From Oscillospiraceae bacterium (GTDB lineage: Bacteria > Bacillota > Clostridia > Oscillospirales > Ruminococcaceae), in NCBI GenBank assembly GCA_045121595.1, contig JBGVGI010000003.1:63610-127609 (forward strand): 64,000 nucleotides of DNA, in the 5' to 3' direction. Shown in pieces: positions 18,889 to 41,101 of the stretch. Position numbers and translations under genes: made by a program. Each line of letters begins with the position of its first letter. Within the stretch, counting starts at the first letter, position 1. Below the pieces are notes generated by a model, which saw only the letters and a program-made list of their open reading frames with translations, was not told the DNA's origin and made no database searches.

Positions 18889-18913
18889 ACAGATTTGCAA
18901 ATTATTGCTTTTT

Positions 18914-19005
18914 CAAATCTTCCTACGCTGGTATTACCCAAACAGGTTAAAAGGGTTAAAGCATTCGCTTCTCTCAGCCGACTTTAAGTCAGCACCCCTG
19001 ATTTA
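18914..19005 (-). ncRNA. TPP riboswitch
   Basis: Minus strand AGGGGTGC...GGCTGAGAG...AACCCTTTTAACCTG...GGGTAATACCAGCGTAGGAAG matches the THI-box consensus. Confidence 0.95.
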
Positions 19006-19123
19006 AGTACATTTTACAACAAAATTTTCATTTTGTCAATAGGAAATAACAAGGCTCCCTTGTGTAAAGGGAGGCTTTATATACGGATAGTGCCGTGAAC
19101 AAAAGCTCACGGCACTATATGTA

Positions 19124-27004: not shown

Positions 27005-27769
27005 TTAATCAAGTGTATTAAGATAATCTATACTCTGTTTTGAGTAATCAAGACTCACACGACCTGAGTTTTCGCATTCGACTACCATCATAACGCCGTT
27101 TTTTATTGCCCAGTCGTGGATAGCCTTTATATCGGTTTCGCCATACCCGACGGGACGGTCTTCAACGCCAACGCGGTGATTTCCGAAATAAAAATCTTTT
27201 TCCTTGCAAGCAATACCGTCTTTAAGATGGAGAAATCTCACTCTGTCTTTGTATTTGTTTAAAAACTCAATGGTGTCAATTCTTGCGTTATAAAGCCAGA
27301 AAGTATCGACTTCAAGTTCCATCTCGGTTTTGGTAAGAACGTCTTCTGCAAAGGTAGTACCGTCATCCACCTTCAAAAACTCACCATCGTGGTTATGAAA
27401 AGCAAAATGCATACCGATTGCCTTAAGCCTTTTATCTATATCGTTGAATTTTGCGATAAGGTCTTTCTTTTTCTCAGGTGTTGACCAGTCACAACAAGGA
27501 ATGATAAATGTATCACAACCGAGTATTTTGTGAAAAGCAACCGTTTCGTCAAATTTATCGGGCAAAAGGACATCTTCGTGAAGGTGGGCTGCTGAACATT
27601 TCACCCCGTACTTATCCATAAAGCCTTTTATTTCTTCGGCGGTATGGCCGTGATATTCACAAAACTCAACGTATTTGTAACCCATTTGAGCAACGGCTCT
27701 GATACCCTCTTCAAGTGAAGTTTCGCTTACATAATCTTCTACCGAATAAAGCTGTATACTGTAATCCAT
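27005..27769 (-). CDS. Sugar phosphate isomerase/epimerase (xylose-isomerase-like TIM barrel)
   Basis: FHNHDGEF, LEVDTFW, LHLKD, VVECE metal motifs. Confidence 0.85.
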   Translation of the reverse strand: MDYSIQLYSVEDYVSETSLEEGIRAVAQMGYKYVEFCEYHGHTAEEIKGFMDKYGVKCSAAHLHEDVLLPDKFDETVAFHKILGCDTFIIPCCDWSTPEKKKDLIAKFNDIDKRLKAIGMHFAFHNHDGEFLKVDDGTTFAEDVLTKTEMELEVDTFWLYNARIDTIEFLNKYKDRVRFLHLKDGIACKEKDFYFGNHRVGVEDRPVGYGETDIKAIHDWAIKNGVMMVVECENSGRVSLDYSKQSIDYLNTLD

Positions 27770-27773
27770 TTTA

Positions 27774-28550
27774 TTACTCCTCGAGTGTTTTAAGATAGTC
27801 TATGCACTGTTTACTGCAATAAAGTCCCGACGGCTCACGGTTTTCACATTCAATTATCATAGGAACATTGTTTTTTATTGCCCACTCACGGATAGCCTTG
27901 ATATCATTTTCGCCATATCCCACGGGACGATGTTCAACACCAATACGATGTTTACCGAAAATCATTTCCTCTTCCTTACAGGAAATGCCGTCTTTGATAT
28001 GCAAAACTCTTATTCTGTCTTTGTATTTGTTAAGGAAATCTATGGTGTCAATCCTTGCGTTGAAAGTCCAGAAGGTATCAACTTCAAGTTCGATTGATGA
28101 ACGGTTCAAAACGTCATCGGCAAATACGATATTGTATCCCGTTTTCATAAACTCCGAGTCATGGTTGTGGTACGCTAAATGCATACCTTCACTTTCGAGT
28201 CTTTTCTGCCATTTTGCAAAATTTTCTATGAGTTCGTCGCGTTTTTCGGGAGTTGACCAGTCACATCCAGGGATGATCAAGGTATCACAACCGATTGCCT
28301 TGTGAAATCTTATGGTTTCGTCGATTTTTTCTTCCTCAAACCAGGGGGTACCTGTATGAGCGCCCGATACTTTAAGGTCGTATTCTTCGAGAAAGCTTTT
28401 TATCTCCTCAGCAGTATGTCCGTAATATCCGCAAAACTCAACGTATTTGTAACCGAGTTTTGCCACCTCGCAAAGCACCTCCTTATAGGGTCTTTGCTTT
28501 GCCACATCTTCTACAGAGCACATCTGCAGACCGTATTCTGTCTTAGTCAT
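27774..28550 (-). CDS. Sugar phosphate isomerase/epimerase, tandem paralog
   Basis: YHNHDSEF, LEVDTFW, LHIKD, IIECE. ATG 28550 follows GGAGG. Confidence 0.85.
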   Translation of the reverse strand: MTKTEYGLQMCSVEDVAKQRPYKEVLCEVAKLGYKYVEFCGYYGHTAEEIKSFLEEYDLKVSGAHTGTPWFEEEKIDETIRFHKAIGCDTLIIPGCDWSTPEKRDELIENFAKWQKRLESEGMHLAYHNHDSEFMKTGYNIVFADDVLNRSSIELEVDTFWTFNARIDTIDFLNKYKDRIRVLHIKDGISCKEEEMIFGKHRIGVEHRPVGYGENDIKAIREWAIKNNVPMIIECENREPSGLYCSKQCIDYLKTLEE

Positions 28551-36240: not shown

Positions 36241-36452
36241 AGAGCAGAGGACAACCCTCTGCTCTTTTAGTTATTTCATCGGATTATTTTCGATATACCG
36301 CCACGTTTCGAGATAATCATTTTCATCACGGATAATATGGTCGTAATACGATTTCTGCCACAATTTTTTATTAAATGGTTTCAATACATTTTCTTTCACA
36401 CATTTTATATATTCATTTGTGGTCATGGTTTTAAACCATTGCACCATATCCG

Positions 36453-36479
36453 GTAGGGAACGACCTGTGTGTCGTTCCG
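36453..36479 (+). repeat. GTAG-type REP inside the RAYT ORF
   Basis: GTAG-GGAACGAC-CTGTGT-GTCGTTCC-G. Confidence 0.9.
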
Positions 36480-36603
36480 CATCAATGAACAATATAAAAT
36501 GAATATGGTCAGGCATAATAACGTATTTTTCTATCGTTATACCGAATTTGTTTTCCAGTTTGGATAACCATTTTTCTATTATTATGTTTTGCGTAATATC
36601 TGA

Positions 36604-36630
36604 CGGAACGACACACAGGTCGTTCCCTAC
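36604..36630 (-). repeat. GTAG-type REP inside the RAYT ORF (inverted copy)
   Basis: Exact reverse complement of 36453-36479. Confidence 0.9.
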
Positions 36631-36756
36631 AATTGATTTTTCAAACAAGCATTGTCTTTCATAGGTGCACACCGTCACAAAATACAATCCATTTTGGGAA
36701 TAATCATAATCTTTTAACCTGTTGGCTTTACGCTTTGGGTATTCCATAAAACCCAA

Positions 36757-38667
36757 CTATATATGCAAATTAAAATACTTAACGTCCTCAAGGTCGCGGT
36801 TTGCAGCGGAAGCGTAGTCACACATAATAAGGTCACGGGTTTCACCGTCTGCTGTAAGCTTCACCCTCACCATACAAAGGGTGTTGTCAAGCCTTATTGG
36901 GTTAGCCTCAACACGTCTTCCCTCTTTGCCGAAGATAGTTTCATTTGAAAACATATCCTCTTCCTTGCATCCCACACGTTTTGACCTTGCAAGCATCACG
37001 GGGCCACGGCGAAGCACCGACATAGCACATTTAGTCATCATTTCCTTATCGCATCTGCCGTCAAACTCGTCAACCCAGCGCCATACGTGGTAGTCGGTAT
37101 CGGGGAGTGCTTTATATTCATAAGCAAAATCGATAATCTCAACCGTCATATCGAAGTTCATTCTTATAACGAAATTTTCCTCTTTGATATCAATAACGCA
37201 GTATTCACCCGCTACTGCCGTGTAAACGTCGTCTTCTGCGATAACCGAAGTATTTTTACTCCACGAAGGGATACGAAGGTAAAGTTTTTCGCCGACCTTT
37301 GCACCACGCACAGTAATCATCAAAGCCCCCTTATCGGCGTAACCTGCACCGATTCTGAAGCTTGTTTTACCGAAATCAACCGTCGACTGGATATACATAT
37401 TAACGCTGTATCCGTCAGGGCGTCTTGTGATAATGGTTTCGGCAACGTTTGTGAATCCTCTGCCTAAGTTATCAACGCAACAATGCTGATATTTCGTTTC
37501 GCAATGTCCGTCACCCGTCCACTGACGACCTGCACTTCTTACAAAGAACGCACCGCCCTTGCCGTTTTCATACGCACCTGCAAGAAAAGCATTCATAAAG
37601 GCTTTTTCCATATATTCCGTGTATTTTATCTCACCCGTGAGAAGATAAAGCTCGTGGCAAAGGCGCATCCAGTGGATAACGTCGCAGATTTCGGTTGCAG
37701 CGTCGGGATAGTATTTTGCGTTTGCAAAACGTTCGCAGTAACCGACACTGCCCAAAATATTTTCCTCGTCACGGTAAACGTTGTCGCAGAAATTAACGGT
37801 TGCATCAAAAATTCTCTTTTCCCCCGTAATTCTGTAAAGCTCAATAAGTCCGTCAAAGCAGGACATCATCTCGTAAGCCTTTGCGATATAATCGGGGTCA
37901 CCCTCGCACCAGTTCGCAGGGGATTTATCGGACAAAGCATTTTTAATAAGATTGGGAGCTTTATTATCCTCTCTGTCCCAGTCTTTTGCGATTTGGAGAC
38001 AAAAATCAAGGTACTTTTTATCCCCCGTCAGGCGGTACAGAATAAGCATCGGTTTCATAATTGAGCAGGAAGGAAGTCCCACGATACAACCCGTATCCCT
38101 TGCAGTTGCCTTTAACTCTTCAAGCTGACTTATGGTACAGTCGGCAAGGCGTACACATCCTTTTAAAATCTTTTTATCGTCTAAAAGCTGAGCCACTTCC
38201 AAAAGTGCCCACAGAGTATACTTTCTGCCCCAGATGTTCCAGTTGAAATCACACGGCCAACCGTATTTGTTAAGTGAGCGGTCGTTTGCCGTCGGCAAAA
38301 AGTTACGGCTTTCAAAATAGGTACCCGTGTAGCCTTCTGCATCCTGGAAAGAAAGTATTCTGTAAGCGGATTTTTTTATATCCTCTTTAAGCTTTTCGTC
38401 GTTTTTCATTCTGCAGACACGACAAGCCGACAGAATAAGCTTTCCCCAGAACTCACCTCTCCACATACCGTGAGTGTACTCGTCGTCGTATTTTTGGAGG
38501 AAGCAGTCCTCTGCCTCACGCAAAATTTCCTCAATGGCAAACTTTCCGTTTACACGTTCAAAAACGAATCTGTCAAACCTTATACCGTACTCTCCGTCAA
38601 AGGAAACCCCCGAAAGATTTGGCTTTTCAATTAAATTTTCAACCTTGTAATTTACTTTGTAATCCAT
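36757..38667 (-). CDS. GH127/GH146-like beta-L-arabinofuranosidase-family glycosidase
   Basis: (alpha/alpha)6 motifs, TEICD (ExC) and HCC cysteine/Zn motifs, YLLTGEIKY.EYMEKAFMN; no signal peptide. Confidence 0.75.
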   Translation of the reverse strand: MDYKVNYKVENLIEKPNLSGVSFDGEYGIRFDRFVFERVNGKFAIEEILREAEDCFLQKYDDEYTHGMWRGEFWGKLILSACRVCRMKNDEKLKEDIKKSAYRILSFQDAEGYTGTYFESRNFLPTANDRSLNKYGWPCDFNWNIWGRKYTLWALLEVAQLLDDKKILKGCVRLADCTISQLEELKATARDTGCIVGLPSCSIMKPMLILYRLTGDKKYLDFCLQIAKDWDREDNKAPNLIKNALSDKSPANWCEGDPDYIAKAYEMMSCFDGLIELYRITGEKRIFDATVNFCDNVYRDEENILGSVGYCERFANAKYYPDAATEICDVIHWMRLCHELYLLTGEIKYTEYMEKAFMNAFLAGAYENGKGGAFFVRSAGRQWTGDGHCETKYQHCCVDNLGRGFTNVAETIITRRPDGYSVNMYIQSTVDFGKTSFRIGAGYADKGALMITVRGAKVGEKLYLRIPSWSKNTSVIAEDDVYTAVAGEYCVIDIKEENFVIRMNFDMTVEIIDFAYEYKALPDTDYHVWRWVDEFDGRCDKEMMTKCAMSVLRRGPVMLARSKRVGCKEEDMFSNETIFGKEGRRVEANPIRLDNTLCMVRVKLTADGETRDLIMCDYASAANRDLEDVKYFNLHI

Positions 38668-38739
38668 AATATCTCTCCTTTTCTTTCCAACAGAATACCA
38701 TACTTGAAATTAAAAAGCAATAGACAAAATCTATTTTTC

Positions 38740-38768
38740 TTGCAATTTATTTTTATATGTGCTATAAT
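38740..38768 (+). promoter_or_regulatory. Strong SigA promoter
   Basis: TTGCAA-17 nt-TATAAT with extended TGn. Confidence 0.8.
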
Positions 38769-38774
38769 TTTCTT

Positions 38775-38940
38775 GCGACGAAAATTTAATTATACCTTTT
38801 AATTGCGTAGGTGTGTATTTTACCTTTCGGTAAAAATGCATACTCTTTTCTACATGCCTATGCAATAAGGAAAACTTTTCGTCGCAACAAAAGTCGAAGT
38901 ATGCGTTTTTCGTGCGTAGCTTCGGCTACGCATTTTTTAT
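38775..38940 (+). ncRNA. Candidate structured RNA or attenuator leader of unknown family
   Basis: Rod with 10-bp and 16-bp helices (G-U wobbles on the + strand), potential loop-tail pseudoknot, and a UUCG terminator with U-tract. Confidence 0.6.
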
Positions 38941-38957
38941 TTGAAAGGAGATTCCCT

Positions 38958-39095
38958 ATGCCCGACTACAAAGCGATGTATTATAAACTGTTTAACACAT
39001 ACACCGACGTAATTGAAATGCTACAAAAAGCGCAACTTGAAACCGAAGAGATTTATATGAATTCTTCCGAGGACGAAGAAGAAACAGAAGCTTAA
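38958..39095 (+). CDS. Small acidic hypothetical protein (45 aa, MPDYKAMYYKLFN...)
   Basis: GAAAGGAG SD 7 nt upstream of ATG; resembles a recurrent small Clostridia helical protein that I cannot name. Confidence 0.7.
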   Translation: MPDYKAMYYKLFNTYTDVIEMLQKAQLETEEIYMNSSEDEEETEA

Positions 39096-39161
39096 TCCCT
39101 TACTACGATACTATTTTACCACATATATTAGTAACAAAAGTAACAACTTTTAAAAAAATAA

Positions 39162-39190
39162 AAAAAGCTCCGAAATTTTCGGAGCTTTTT
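39162..39190. terminator. Bidirectional terminator
   Basis: AAAAAGCTCCGAA-AT-TTTCGGAGCTTTTT. Confidence 0.8.
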
Positions 39191-39198
39191 CATTACAA

Positions 39199-40197
39199 TT
39201 ATTTGTTTGCTTCTTCAACTGCAACAGCACAAGCAACTGTCATACCAACCATGGGGTTGTTACCTGCACCGATAAGACCCATCATTTCAACGTGAGCGGG
39301 AACGGAAGAAGAACCTGCAAACTGAGCGTCACCGTGCATACGACCCATTGTGTCTGTAAGACCATAGGAAGCAGGACCTGCAGCAACGTTATCGGGATGC
39401 AAGGTACGGCCTGTACCACCACCGGAAGCAACGGAGAAGTATTTCTTGCCGTTTTCCAAAGCCCATTTCTTGTAAGTTCCTGCAACGGGGTGCTGGAAAC
39501 GAGTGGGGTTAGTGGAGTTACCTGTGATAGATACGTCAGCTTTTTCGTGAATCATGATAGCAACGCCTTCGGAAACGTCGTTAGCACCGTAGCAACGAAC
39601 TTTAGCTTTGTCGCCGTCGGAGTAAGCTTTTTCACGAACGATTTTGAGATTGCCTGTAGCAAAGTCATATTCAGTTTCAACGTAAGTAAAGCCGTTGATT
39701 CTGGAGATAATCATAGCAGCGTCTTTACCAAGACCGTTGAGAATAACTCTAAGGGGTTTCTTTCTTGCTTTGTTAGCTGTTCTTGCGATACCGATAGCAC
39801 CTTCAGCAGCAGCGAAGGATTCGTGACCTGCAAGGAAGCAGAAGCAGTCTGTTTCTTCTCTCAAAAGCATAGCGCCGAGGTTACCGTGGCCAAGACCAAC
39901 AGCACGCTGTTCAGCAACAGAACCGGGGATGCAGAAAGCCTGCAAGCCGATACCGATAGCTTCAGCAGCATCAGCAGCTTTTTTGATACCTTTTTTGAGT
40001 GCAACGCCAACGCCAAGAGTATATGCCCAGGAAGCATTTTCAAATGCGATAGGCTGTACACCTTTAACGATAGCTTCAACGTCGATACCTTTTTCAAGGC
40101 AGTAATCTCTTACTTCATCGAGAGATTTAAAGCCGTATTCAGCAAGACATGCCTCGATTTTAGGCATTCTTCTTTCCTGACCTTCAAATTTAGCCAT
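39199..40197 (-). CDS. GGGtGRT family protein
   Basis: Contains VASGGGTGRTLHPDN. Confidence 0.9.
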   Translation of the reverse strand: MAKFEGQERRMPKIEACLAEYGFKSLDEVRDYCLEKGIDVEAIVKGVQPIAFENASWAYTLGVGVALKKGIKKAADAAEAIGIGLQAFCIPGSVAEQRAVGLGHGNLGAMLLREETDCFCFLAGHESFAAAEGAIGIARTANKARKKPLRVILNGLGKDAAMIISRINGFTYVETEYDFATGNLKIVREKAYSDGDKAKVRCYGANDVSEGVAIMIHEKADVSITGNSTNPTRFQHPVAGTYKKWALENGKKYFSVASGGGTGRTLHPDNVAAGPASYGLTDTMGRMHGDAQFAGSSSVPAHVEMMGLIGAGNNPMVGMTVACAVAVEEANK

Positions 40198-40212
40198 AAC
40201 AGTAAACCTCCC

Positions 40213-40902
40213 TTATTCTTCTCTGGGGTCGATATGTTTGTAACCTTCATAACGACCGTAAGTGCCGATGTTGTTTTCGTAAGCTTCTTTGGGGTCTTTG
40301 CCGTGACGGATGTCTTCGAGCATTTTGCCAAGTCTTACGAATTTATAACCGCAAACTTCGTTGTCTTCATCAACAGCGATTTTGAGGATATAACCTTCTG
40401 CCATTTCGAGGTAACGTACACCTTTAGCTCCTGTGGAGAAGATTGTACCAACCTGAGAACGGAGTCCTTTACCGAGGTCTTCAAGACCTGCGCCAACGGG
40501 CAAACCGTCTTCGGAGAAAGCAGTCTGAGTTCTGCCGTATACAATCTGCAAGAAGAGTTCTCTCATAGCAACGTTGATAGCGTCACAAACGAGGTCAGTG
40601 TTAAGAGCTTCTAAAAGTGTTTTACCAGGCAAGATTTCACCAGCCATAGCAGCAGAGTGAGTCATACCGGAACAACCGAGAGTTTCAACGAGTGCTTCTT
40701 CGATGATACCGTTTTTAACGTTAAGTGTAAGTTTGCAGCAACCCTGCTGAGGAGCACACCAGCCCACACCGTGAGTCAAACCGGAAATATCCTTTACGTC
40801 ATACGCTTTTACCCATCTGCCTTCTTCGGGAATGGGAGCAGGACCGTGTTTAGGGCCTTTAGCGATAGGACACATTCTCTCAACTTCATGAGAATACATC
40901 AT
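40213..40902 (-). CDS. IscU/NifU-like Fe-S scaffold-domain protein
   Basis: WCAPQQGCCKL, GCSGMTHS and LVCDA cysteines; the usual partner of GGGtGRT. Confidence 0.8.
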   Translation of the reverse strand: MMYSHEVERMCPIAKGPKHGPAPIPEEGRWVKAYDVKDISGLTHGVGWCAPQQGCCKLTLNVKNGIIEEALVETLGCSGMTHSAAMAGEILPGKTLLEALNTDLVCDAINVAMRELFLQIVYGRTQTAFSEDGLPVGAGLEDLGKGLRSQVGTIFSTGAKGVRYLEMAEGYILKIAVDEDNEVCGYKFVRLGKMLEDIRHGKDPKEAYENNIGTYGRYEGYKHIDPREE

Positions 40903-40942
40903 ATTTATCATTCCTTTCAAAATTATATGCCTTTTTCAGGAT

Positions 40943-41101
40943 CGGAACGACACACAGGTCGTTCCCTACAAGCCTTCTCCAGTGGGAGAAGGGGGACCGC
41001 TTGCGGTGGATGAGGTGTAACACTCAACCACACAGGTCGTTCATAATCGGAACGACACACAGGTCGTTCATAGTCGGAACGACACACAGGTCGTTCCCTA
41101 C
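40943..41101 (-). repeat. REP cluster (BIME-like): 2 complete + 2 partial copies of the RAYT REP plus a different palindrome
   Basis: CGGAACGACACACAGGTCGTTCCCTAC at 40943 and 41075, partial copies at 41030 and 41048, and CCTTCTCC-AGTG-GGAGAAGG at about 40973. Confidence 0.9.

What the first reader, a model, noticed from the sequence alone, without database searches (positions are those of the whole stretch)
38740..39095. Unassigned ~165-nt structured RNA with switch-like architecture controlling a 45-aa ORF
Seen: near-consensus promoter; GCGACGAAAA (38775-84) pairs with TTTTCGTCGC (38876-85); a 16-bp helix 38802-17/38851-66 with G-U pairs; inner hairpin TTTTACC-TTTC-GGTAAAA. The apical ATGCATACT-CTTTT can pair with the 3' tail AAAAG...AGTATGCGT (pseudoknot). 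A terminator TGCGTAGC-TTCG-GCTACGCA-T6 follows, then SD and ATG. The terminator 5' arm TGCGTAG can alternatively pair with CTATGCA (38858-64), giving mutually exclusive terminator and antiterminator states. It matches no riboswitch, 6S, SRP or T-box consensus I recognise. Inference: a novel sRNA or riboswitch/attenuator regulating a small acidic protein.
Basis: partly seen in the sequence, partly recalled or inferred. Interest (0 to 1): 0.7.

Follow-up and report, generated by a model that had tools for sequence, protein, structure and literature searches.

The report
Widespread promoter-leader-terminator RNA switch cassette
The structured RNA is real and matches no Rfam family, but it is not special to the 45-residue gene: it is one copy of a conserved promoter, folded leader and terminator unit that gut Clostridia place in front of many unrelated genes, apparently to switch their transcription on or off.

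Summary
The fold is far more stable than shuffles (z = -6.85). Related copies keep P1, P2, P3 and the terminator through compensatory changes (93.7% of cells paired, 46 of 48 pairs changed on both sides). The apical-loop to 3'-tail pseudoknot also covaries.

Two points of the interpretation need correcting. First, the antiterminator is the 3' tail pairing with the terminator's 5' arm and loop. Second, the RNA is not dedicated to the 45-aa ORF. A scan for the RNA itself gave 125 model-confirmed copies in metagenomes. Of the 118 with enough downstream sequence, 109 sit in front of a co-directional gene, and only about 3-4 of those genes are of the MPDYK type. The rest include surface proteins with LRR, dockerin, SLH or lectin domains, lipoproteins, zinc-ribbon proteins and XRE regulators.

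Promoter, leader and terminator travel as one unit, sometimes in tandem. Rfam 15 has no matching family.

Best reading: a cis-acting conditional terminator in which pseudoknot formation frees the terminator. The trigger is unknown and no transcript evidence was obtained.

The parts
38740..38768 (+). Sigma-70-type promoter: -35 TTGCAA (38740-45), 17-nt spacer, extended -10 TGcTATAAT (38760-68). The predicted transcription start is about 38775, at the first bases of P1.
   Evidence: 10 of 12 consensus matches, with TG before the -10. In related copies the -10 starts 7 nt before the model start in 68 of 85 and TG is present in 70 of 85. The transcription start is inferred, not measured.
38773..38784 (+). 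P1, 5' strand (TTGCGACGAAAA). It pairs with 38876-38887.
   Evidence: MFE fold. All 12 pairs show changes on both sides in relatives, 94.4% of cells paired.
38785..38801 (+). Asymmetric internal loop J1/2 (38785-94), short helix P2a 5' strand (38795-98, pairs with 38867-70), and a 3-nt bulge.
   Evidence: The loop varies in sequence but is A/U-rich in relatives.
38802..38817 (+). P2b, 5' strand. Its upper part (about 38808-17) is segment S5, which can pair either with S3 (38851-60) or with the loop segment L.
   Evidence: All 16 pairs have compensatory changes. S5:S3 and S5:L are both specific to cognate pairs.
38818..38835 (+). P3 hairpin TTTTACC-TTTC-GGTAAAA.
   Evidence: 6 of 7 pairs change on both sides in the ORF-found set.
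38832..38850 (+). Segment L, the pseudoknot 5' strand: AAAAATGCATACTCTTTTC. The first four A are shared with P3. It pairs with the tail at 38889-38910.
   Evidence: Duplex energy -15.3 kcal/mol in the window. Cognate versus non-cognate loop-tail pairs: -16.5 versus -10.9 kcal/mol, 0 of 20000 permutations as good. Column count 92.4% paired.
38851..38870 (+). P2b 3' strand (S3 plus the lower part, 38851-66) and P2a 3' strand (38867-70).
38876..38887 (+). P1, 3' strand (TTTTCGTCGCAA), followed by a short linker (CAAA).
38889..38911 (+). Segment T, the 3' tail: AAAAG-TCGA-AGTATGCG-TTTTT-C. It pairs either with L (pseudoknot) or, through 38892-38906, with the terminator's 5' arm and loop at 38914-27 (antiterminator).
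   Evidence: The MFE fold of 38770-38940 chooses the T:A hairpin. T:A cognate -13.0 versus non-cognate -9.7 kcal/mol, 0 of 20000 permutations. The two pairings share 9-15 tail nucleotides in all 20 relatives examined.
38912..38939 (+). Intrinsic terminator GTGCGTAGC-TTCG-GCTACGCAT (38912-33) plus T6 (38934-39).
   Evidence: 100% of cells paired, 8 of 9 pairs changed on both sides.
38945..38950 (+). Shine-Dalgarno sequence AAGGAG, 7 nt before the start codon.
   Evidence: Sequence. The same spacing recurs in relatives: the start codon lies within 25 nt of the model end in 74 of 118 copies.
38958..39095 (+). 45-aa ORF MPDYKAMYYKLFNTYTDVIEMLQKAQLETEEIYMNSSEDEEETEA. It belongs to a large, unnamed family of small proteins. 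The predicted structure is a single helix with an acidic C-terminal part.
   Evidence: 2521 representative clusters at E <= 0.001. 173 loci in genomes of class Clostridia. No Pfam, NCBIfam or significant PHROG match. AlphaFold model is a helix over residues 4-44, mean pLDDT 86.9.
39161..39191 (.). Two-way terminator hairpin that closes the small ORF (+ strand) and the converging GGGtGRT gene (- strand).
   Evidence: 14-bp stem, T-runs on both sides.

Best explanation
The region is one copy of a self-contained expression cassette: a sigma-70-type promoter, a leader RNA of about 165 nt that starts at the transcription start, an intrinsic terminator, and directly after it the ribosome-binding site of whatever gene follows.

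The leader works as a conditional terminator built from a chain of segments that each have two possible partners.
- S5, the upper 5' strand of the long stem, pairs with S3 (its 3' strand) or with L (the apical single strand).
- L pairs with S5 or with T (the 3' tail).
- T pairs with L or with A (the terminator's 5' arm).
- A pairs with T or with B (the terminator's 3' arm).

In the OFF state, S5:S3, L:T (a pseudoknot) and A:B (the terminator) form, and transcription stops before the gene. In the ON state, S5:L and T:A (the antiterminator) form, and RNA polymerase reads through.

Shown here: all these pairings are conserved and specific to cognate sequences, and the cassette sits immediately upstream of co-directional genes.

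Inferred: that the choice between the two states is regulated. The trigger could be an unknown ligand or protein, or purely kinetic. With the pseudoknot allowed, the OFF state is the more stable one, so read-through probably needs something that keeps L away from T.
For: Structure:
- Fold z = -6.85.
- In 25 copies found through the ORF, 93.7% of cells are paired and 46 of 48 pairs change on both sides; slid controls give 33-50%.
- In 77 distinct copies found through the RNA, 93.8% are paired and 43 of 48 pairs are compensatory.

Alternative pairings:
- L:T -16.5 versus -10.9 kcal/mol and T:A -13.0 versus -9.7, each with 0 of 20000 permutations as good.
- S5:S3, S5:L, L:T and T:A are all cognate-specific in two independently gathered sets, while the control pairs S3xT, LxA, S3xA and S5xT show nothing.
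- The pseudoknot column count is 92.4% paired against 16-60% when slid.

Energetics in the window:
- Without the pseudoknot, the antiterminator state (-58.5 kcal/mol) narrowly beats the terminator state (-56.2).
- The pseudoknot adds -11 to -15 to the terminator state, so whether it forms decides the outcome.

Cis position:
- 109 of 118 copies have a co-directional ORF with a Shine-Dalgarno sequence within 250 nt, and 74 have it within 25 nt.
- The promoter sits at a fixed distance from the RNA.
- All 125 pattern-found copies match the full model including the terminator, although the search pattern did not ask for a terminator.
Against: - No transcript data. The only RNA-labelled runs are wastewater libraries whose contigs include promoter DNA, so they are uninformative.
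- No effector is identified.
- Conserved nucleotides lie mostly inside helices rather than in junctions, and the downstream genes have no common function. Both are unlike typical metabolite riboswitches.
- The loop-tail helix is long (about 15-18 bp). It has to coexist with a rod of about 35 bp, which requires a sharp bend at the internal loop. That geometry was not modelled.
- Tandem units each carry their own promoter, which also fits a family of stand-alone small RNAs.
- The model-based alignments are fitted to the structure, which inflates the percentage of paired cells.
Confidence: 0.68

Rival explanations
1. It is a riboswitch in the strict sense. A small molecule, most plausibly a global signal such as a nucleotide second messenger, binds the folded P1/P2/P3 and pseudoknot core, stabilises L:T and turns off a large set of genes that includes many surface proteins. 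This is a sub-case of the best explanation.
For: - The pseudoknot-gated terminator layout is typical of transcriptional riboswitches.
- Many copies exist.
- The downstream genes include many surface and secreted proteins: LRR_5 8, dockerin 6, SLH 5, lectin 4 of 62. By my own recollection this resembles the regulon of c-di-GMP riboswitches in Clostridioides difficile.
- Tandem copies exist.
Against: - No match to any Rfam riboswitch model.
- The junctions vary in sequence and conservation is concentrated in helices.
- A 15-18-bp pseudoknot worth -11 to -16 kcal/mol should not need a ligand to form.
- The downstream genes also include housekeeping-type and unrelated genes, such as an AMP-binding enzyme and what reads, by eye only, like a tRNA synthetase.
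Confidence: 0.25
2. It is a family of trans-acting small RNAs of about 165 nt. Each has its own promoter and terminator, and the family is multi-copy and sometimes tandem. The C/U-rich loop would pair with ribosome-binding sites of target mRNAs, and downstream genes would be expressed only by incidental read-through.
For: - Complete promoter-to-terminator units exist.
- Three tandem units, each with its own promoter, occur in L198 and two in L169.
- The loop contains CUCU or CCUC, which is complementary to GGAG-type ribosome-binding sites.
Against: - 92% of copies (109 of 118) are followed by a co-directional ORF, and in 63% (74 of 118) the ORF starts within 25 nt of the model end. Free-standing small RNA genes would not show this.
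- The antiterminator T:A covaries, which has no purpose in a stand-alone small RNA.
- In the terminated RNA the loop is occupied by its own tail.
Confidence: 0.12
3. It is a mobile DNA repeat, either a MITE-like element with inverted ends or an invertible phase-variation switch. The palindromic shape would then be a DNA feature rather than an RNA structure.
For: - P1 is a conserved 10-12-bp inverted repeat flanking about 90 bp.
- The unit is multi-copy, lies next to unrelated accessory genes and occurs in tandem.
- A Y1 transposase and REP-like repeats lie nearby in the window.
Against: - The stems keep pairing through compensatory changes and many G-U pairs, which are mismatches in DNA.
- Pairings with sequences outside the inverted repeat (L:T, T:A) covary.
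- The inner part is nearly symmetric, because the reverse complement of S5 resembles L. Inversion would therefore hardly change the RNA.
- In metagenome run X1 a 7.7-kb contig runs through both repeat arms without a break.
- No transposase or recombinase was seen linked to the copies in the limited flanks I read, and I made no systematic check for one.
Confidence: 0.04

Closest known systems
Classical four-segment transcription attenuators (trp-type 1:2 / 2:3 / 3:4 pairing)
   Same: Both have a chain of overlapping segments in which an upstream pairing (here L:T) prevents the antiterminator (T:A) and so allows the terminator (A:B). Both sit immediately upstream of the regulated gene.
   Different: There is no leader peptide. 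The AUG inside T is not conserved, and it lies only 2-3 nt from the GGAG. Segment 1 is the apical loop of a long stem, so 1:2 is a pseudoknot. A further upstream competitor (S5) exists.
Pseudoknot-gated transcriptional riboswitches (for example preQ1-I, fluoride, ZTP) and the kissing-loop platform of cobalamin riboswitches
   Same: Formation of a long-range pairing between an aptamer loop and downstream sequence decides whether the terminator forms.
   Different: There is no Rfam match and no known ligand. The pseudoknot is much longer (about 15-18 bp). The junctions are poorly conserved, and the downstream genes are functionally unrelated.
T-box leaders and c-di-GMP riboswitches, as examples of leader RNAs present in many copies per genome
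   Same: One conserved leader with a terminator and antiterminator is reused in front of many genes, and tandem arrangements occur. The c-di-GMP classes also control surface proteins (from my own knowledge).
   Different: No T-box or GEMM model match. The genes are not amino-acid related. Here the promoter is part of the conserved unit, and each tandem unit carries its own promoter.
Multi-copy small RNA families of Firmicutes with C/U-rich loops (for example LhrC of Listeria)
   Same: Multi-copy, partly tandem units with their own promoter and terminator, and a C/U-rich loop complementary to ribosome-binding sites.
   Different: Here the units are tightly coupled to a co-directional downstream start codon, and they carry a conserved antiterminator.

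Membership tests
Any family in Rfam 15 | Covariance-model score at or above the family's gathering threshold | tested here: not met
   The whole-window scan found only a TPP riboswitch at 18903-19009. A permissive scan of 38600-39250 gave only chance-level hits on the RNA, the best being 26.8 bits against a gathering score of 140. Twenty related loci gave no hit on the RNA.
Metabolite riboswitch (general class) | Expression platform with mutually exclusive terminator and antiterminator coupled to the sensor fold | tested here: met
   L:T, T:A and A:B share nucleotides and all covary.
Metabolite riboswitch (general class) | Highly conserved unpaired nucleotides in junctions that form a ligand pocket | tested here: inconclusive
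   J1/2 and J2/1 vary in sequence, and conservation is concentrated in P1, P3, L, T and the terminator. The metagenome set is biased by the search pattern.
Metabolite riboswitch (general class) | Association with genes of one pathway or function | tested here: not met
   The downstream genes include LRR, dockerin, SLH and lectin surface proteins, lipoproteins, zinc-ribbon proteins, HTH regulators, small hypothetical proteins and an AMP-binding enzyme.
Metabolite riboswitch (general class) | Direct, selective ligand binding | not testable with these tools
   This needs in-line probing, ITC or termination assays.
Ribosome-mediated (leader-peptide) attenuator | Conserved short leader ORF with a usable ribosome-binding site overlapping segment 1 | tested here: not met
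   The AUG in T is absent in L004, L017, L023 and L056, among others, and lies 2-3 nt from the GGAG. Segment 1 (L) lies inside a stem-loop.
T-box leader | Specifier loop, T-box sequence, and amino-acid related genes | tested here: not met
   No T-box model hit. The gene set is unrelated to amino acids.
Trans-acting small RNA gene family | Own promoter and terminator; position independent of the neighbouring gene | tested here: inconclusive
   Each unit has its own promoter and terminator, so that part is met. Independence is not met: 109 of 118 copies have a co-directional ORF, 74 of them within 25 nt.
MITE or invertible DNA switch | DNA-level inverted repeats without RNA-type compensatory change; both orientations present in populations | tested here: not met
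   Compensatory and G-U substitutions are present. The contig of run X1 is not broken at the repeats. The inner region is pseudo-symmetric. Read-level inversion was not testable here.
MPDYK small-protein family (the downstream ORF) | N-terminal MPDYK(A/K)MY motif, about 45-65 residues, helical | tested here: met
   Alignment A2 has 16 invariant columns. The profile search gave 2521 clusters. The model is a single helix.

The most novel reading that the evidence does not exclude
This is a previously undescribed, abundant class of leader RNA in gut and rumen Clostridia (seen here in Oscillospiraceae, Acutalibacteraceae and Monoglobaceae, among others). It would sense a global cellular signal, either a small molecule such as a second messenger or a dedicated RNA-binding factor, through a pseudoknot-gated, multi-partner strand-exchange switch. 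In this way it would co-regulate a large, fast-evolving set of surface, secreted and small accessory proteins, and it would spread as a portable promoter-plus-switch cassette.
Probability: 0.3. Interest if true: 0.85.

Novelty: new variant of a known kind. Interest (0 to 1): 0.74.

Why it matters
If the switch is regulated, it defines a large and so far invisible regulon in abundant but poorly studied gut and rumen Clostridia. That regulon includes many cell-surface proteins (BspA-type LRR, dockerin, SLH, lectin) that shape interactions with host and fibre.

It also gives a clean natural example of a chain of strand exchanges (S3-S5-L-T-A-B) that links a distant apical loop to a terminator. 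More than a hundred natural variants are already available for study.

Finding the trigger would add either a new orphan riboswitch ligand or a new RNA-binding regulator.

In practical terms, genome annotation could mark these leaders with a covariance model. The compact promoter-plus-switch unit might also be useful as a genetic part for Clostridia.

Tried and rejected
- **Rfam.** Gathering and permissive scans of the window, plus 20 related loci, gave no family for this RNA.
Pairing of the terminator's 5' arm with 38858-64 shows no cognate signal.
- **Leader-peptide attenuation.** The AUG in the tail is in frame with the ORF in this window (the 94-aa GTG ORF). It is not conserved in relatives, so I rejected this.
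- **Invertible or MITE element.** Rejected because of compensatory and G-U changes, the pseudo-symmetry of the inner part, and the unbroken contig. My first two patterns for inverted copies could not tell the orientations apart.
- **RNA-seq.** No run close enough to the window was found. Wastewater "RNA-Seq" contigs on L145 include promoter DNA or span the terminator, so they are uninformative.
- **Annotated collections.** BLAST of a copy (L030) found nothing in plasmids and only two unannotated faecal phage contigs.
- **Literature.** Keyword searches and two Breaker-laboratory motif catalogues turned up no description. This does not prove that none exists.
- **Seed alignments.** MAFFT alignments (A3, A4) were out of register with the structure. 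I replaced them with a single-sequence covariance model and iterated from there.
- **The small protein.** Pfam, NCBIfam and PHROGs gave no significant match.

Full report
**1. What is at 38740-39095**

- A promoter, TTGCAA-17-TGcTATAAT, at 38740-68.
- Helix P1, 38773-84 with 38876-87.
- A short helix P2a, 38795-98 with 38867-70.
- The 16-bp helix P2b, 38802-17 with 38851-66.
- The hairpin P3, 38818-35.
- A single-stranded apical stretch L, 38836-50.
- A 3' tail T, 38889-38911.
- A terminator at 38912-33 followed by T6.
- AAGGAG at 38945-50, and an ATG ORF at 38958-39095.

The RNA folds at -58.7 kcal/mol against -31.8 +/- 3.9 for shuffles, z = -6.85. Rfam 15 finds only a TPP riboswitch elsewhere in the window and nothing meaningful here even at E <= 10.

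**2. The ORF is real, and copies found through it carry the same RNA**

The 45-aa product has 8 close cluster relatives. A profile search reaches 2521 representative clusters, and 173 loci in genomes of class Clostridia encode a relative. It matches no Pfam, NCBIfam or significant PHROG family. The predicted structure is one long helix, mean pLDDT 86.9.

Relatives sit in quite different neighbourhoods, but many keep the promoter, the RNA and the terminator upstream. Other family members instead lie beside a divergent XRE-type regulator gene or directly after tRNA genes.

I built a covariance model from the window alone (R1) and iterated it to R2. It found 25 true copies among the loci fetched through the ORF. 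In most of them the MPDYK-type ORF starts 14-50 nt after the model end. Exceptions are L024, which has an insertion of about 195 nt, and L020:368-531, for which no ORF was called.

On that alignment 93.7% of cells are paired and 46 of 48 pairs change on both sides. Slid controls give 33-50%. The alignment is fitted to the model, so the percentage is somewhat flattering. The number and variety of compensatory pairs are not explained by that.

**3. The pseudoknot and the true antiterminator**

The pseudoknot cannot be put into the covariance model. I therefore compared duplex energies of each copy's own segments with those of mismatched copies.
- Loop against tail: -16.5 versus -10.9 kcal/mol, 0 of 20000 permutations as good.
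- Tail against the terminator's 5' arm and loop: -13.0 versus -9.7, 0 of 20000.
- The two pairings share 9-15 tail nucleotides in every copy examined.

A further pairing appeared. The upper 5' strand of P2 (S5) can pair with L instead of with S3, which extends P3 into a longer hairpin. This pairing is also cognate-specific, though more weakly. The control combinations S3xT, LxA, S3xA and S5xT are flat. All of this was reproduced in 69 non-redundant copies from an independent source. A column-wise count of the pseudoknot gives 92.4% paired against 16-60% when slid.

The segments therefore form a chain, S3-S5-L-T-A-B, in which each inner segment has two possible partners. One state uses S5:S3, L:T and A:B, the terminator. 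The other uses S5:L and T:A, the antiterminator.

In the window, nested folding alone slightly prefers the antiterminator (-58.5 versus -56.2 kcal/mol). The pseudoknot adds -11 to -15 to the terminator state. Whether L reaches T therefore decides the outcome.

**4. The RNA is not specific to this ORF**

I scanned metagenome contigs with a pattern taken only from the sensor part: GGTAAAAAYRC, then CTC, then GTGTYGCARCA. The pattern contained no terminator and no ORF.
- R2 confirmed 125 copies. Of these, 121 match the whole model including the terminator, and the other four are cut by a contig end.
- A looser pattern found 3 true copies among 11 hits in viral contigs.
- Of the 118 copies with at least 150 nt downstream, 109 have a co-directional ORF of 40 or more residues with a Shine-Dalgarno sequence within 250 nt. 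In 74 of them it starts within 25 nt of the model end.
- Only about 3-4 of these ORFs are MPDYK-like.

Pfam on 62 distinct downstream proteins gives BspA-type LRR 8, dockerin 6, SLH 5, ricin-type lectin 4, zinc ribbons 3, CHAP 2, HTH 2, and single cases such as an AMP-binding enzyme and ParB_N. Many of these proteins appear to match nothing, though I did not count them. By eye, many have signal peptides or lipoprotein boxes.

The promoter is part of the conserved unit. The -10 hexamer starts 7 nt before the model start in 68 of 85 copies, and the TG extension is present in 70 of 85. This puts the transcription start at the first bases of P1.

Units occur twice within a few kb in L127, L161 and L222. 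They also occur as direct tandems with a promoter each: three in L198 and two in L169. The 64-kb window itself holds one copy.

**5. How it most likely works**

Shown: the conserved architecture, the mutually exclusive pairings, and the position directly upstream of co-directional genes.

Inferred, as a sequence of events during transcription:
- The local hairpin S5:L forms first.
- S3 then competes for S5 and releases L.
- When T emerges, it either docks on the free L, so that A pairs with B and transcription terminates, or it pairs with A as A emerges, so that RNA polymerase reads through.

If the pseudoknot is sterically possible, the terminated state is the more stable one. Read-through would then need something that holds L, or simply fast local folding.

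I could not identify the trigger. A pathway-specific metabolite is unlikely, given the gene set and the variable junctions. The remaining options are a global small-molecule signal, a protein, or a purely kinetic attenuator.

One geometric caveat applies. L lies at the tip of a rod of about 35 bp, while T starts a few nucleotides after its base. The pseudoknot therefore needs a sharp bend at the asymmetric internal loop between P1 and P2. This was not modelled.

**6. Rivals**

A stand-alone small RNA family fits the tandem units with their own promoters and the C/U-rich loop. It does not explain the tight coupling to downstream start codons or the conserved antiterminator.

A mobile or invertible DNA element fits the inverted repeat and the copy number. 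It is contradicted by several results:
- compensatory and G-U changes in the stems;
- covariation with segments outside the repeat;
- the near-symmetry of the inner part, which would make inversion pointless;
- an unbroken 7.7-kb contig in run X1.

**7. Comparison with what is known, and novelty**

In mechanism it works like a four-segment attenuator whose first segment is a hairpin loop. Equivalently, it works like a pseudoknot-gated transcriptional riboswitch.

It is not a member of any Rfam family. It fails the tests for a T-box, for a leader-peptide attenuator and for an inverton or MITE. I found no description in keyword searches or in two motif catalogues, which does not prove there is none.

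I rate it a new variant of a known kind. It is a new leader-RNA class with unusual traits: the promoter is part of the unit, the downstream genes are very mixed, the pseudoknot is very long, and the exchange chain has five helices.

**8. Limits**

- There is no transcript evidence.
- All copies come from metagenomes or metagenome-assembled genomes.
- The metagenome set is restricted to copies that match my pattern.
- The energies ignore pseudoknot geometry.
- Copy number per genome was not measured.

Noticed in passing
window 18903-19009 (- strand): TPP riboswitch (RF00059), 73.8 bits. It is the only Rfam family hit in the window.
   Followed up: no
window 36271-36756 (- strand); repeats at 36453-79, 36604-30, 40943-69, 41040-74, 41075-41101: An IS200-like Y1 transposase (PF01797), probably of the REP-associated (RAYT) type. 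One copy of a 27-nt palindromic repeat (GTAGGGAACGACCTGTGTGTCGTTCCG) lies inside the gene, and several perfect or near-perfect copies lie about 4.3 kb further on. Together they bracket the GH127, small-ORF and GGGtGRT region.
   Followed up: partly
loci L034-L036, L039, L040, L045, L048, L064, L067-L069, L074, L080, L085, L092 and others; checked in detail at L068:2700-3159: Many members of the MPDYK small-protein family have no RNA leader. Instead they sit head-to-head with a short XRE-type HTH gene, with palindromic operator-like repeats in between. This suggests a two-gene regulator and small-partner module.
   Followed up: partly
loci L063, L065, L066, L071, L075, L076, L078, L082, L083, L086, L087, L090, L093: A longer variant of the small protein (MPDYKAMYYHLAGRMATAIDALEATTNAL...). 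In most of these loci it lies directly downstream of tRNA genes and a terminator-like hairpin. This is a third kind of upstream context for the family.
   Followed up: no
L198:14063-14696 (- strand): Three complete promoter-RNA-terminator units in direct tandem, about 40 nt apart. They are followed by one gene (MPICSFTGHSNCNPNKDEM...).
   Followed up: partly
window 38789-38817 (- strand): A promoter-like site (TACACA-17-TATAAT) on the opposite strand, inside the P2 region and facing the GH127 gene (start codon at 38667). The leader DNA may therefore overlap the divergent gene's promoter.
   Followed up: no
window 38901-39095 (+ strand): The ATG inside the tail (38901) is in frame with the 45-aa ORF and has no intervening stop. 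It forms part of the 94-aa GTG ORF at 38811-39095. This ATG is not conserved in relatives, so the longer ORF is probably spurious.
   Followed up: yes
window 27068-28466: Two adjacent stretches 772 nt apart, 73-78% identical. They look like tandem paralogous genes.
   Followed up: no
window 39199-40920 (- strand): A GGGtGRT-family protein (PF14057, E = 6e-193) sits next to a weakly NifU-like protein and is followed by GAPDH. The same trio recurs next to the small ORF in L002 and L003.
   Followed up: no
L024:2609-3001: One RNA copy is separated from its MPDYK-type ORF by an insertion of about 195 nt containing hairpin-forming repeats.
   Followed up: no
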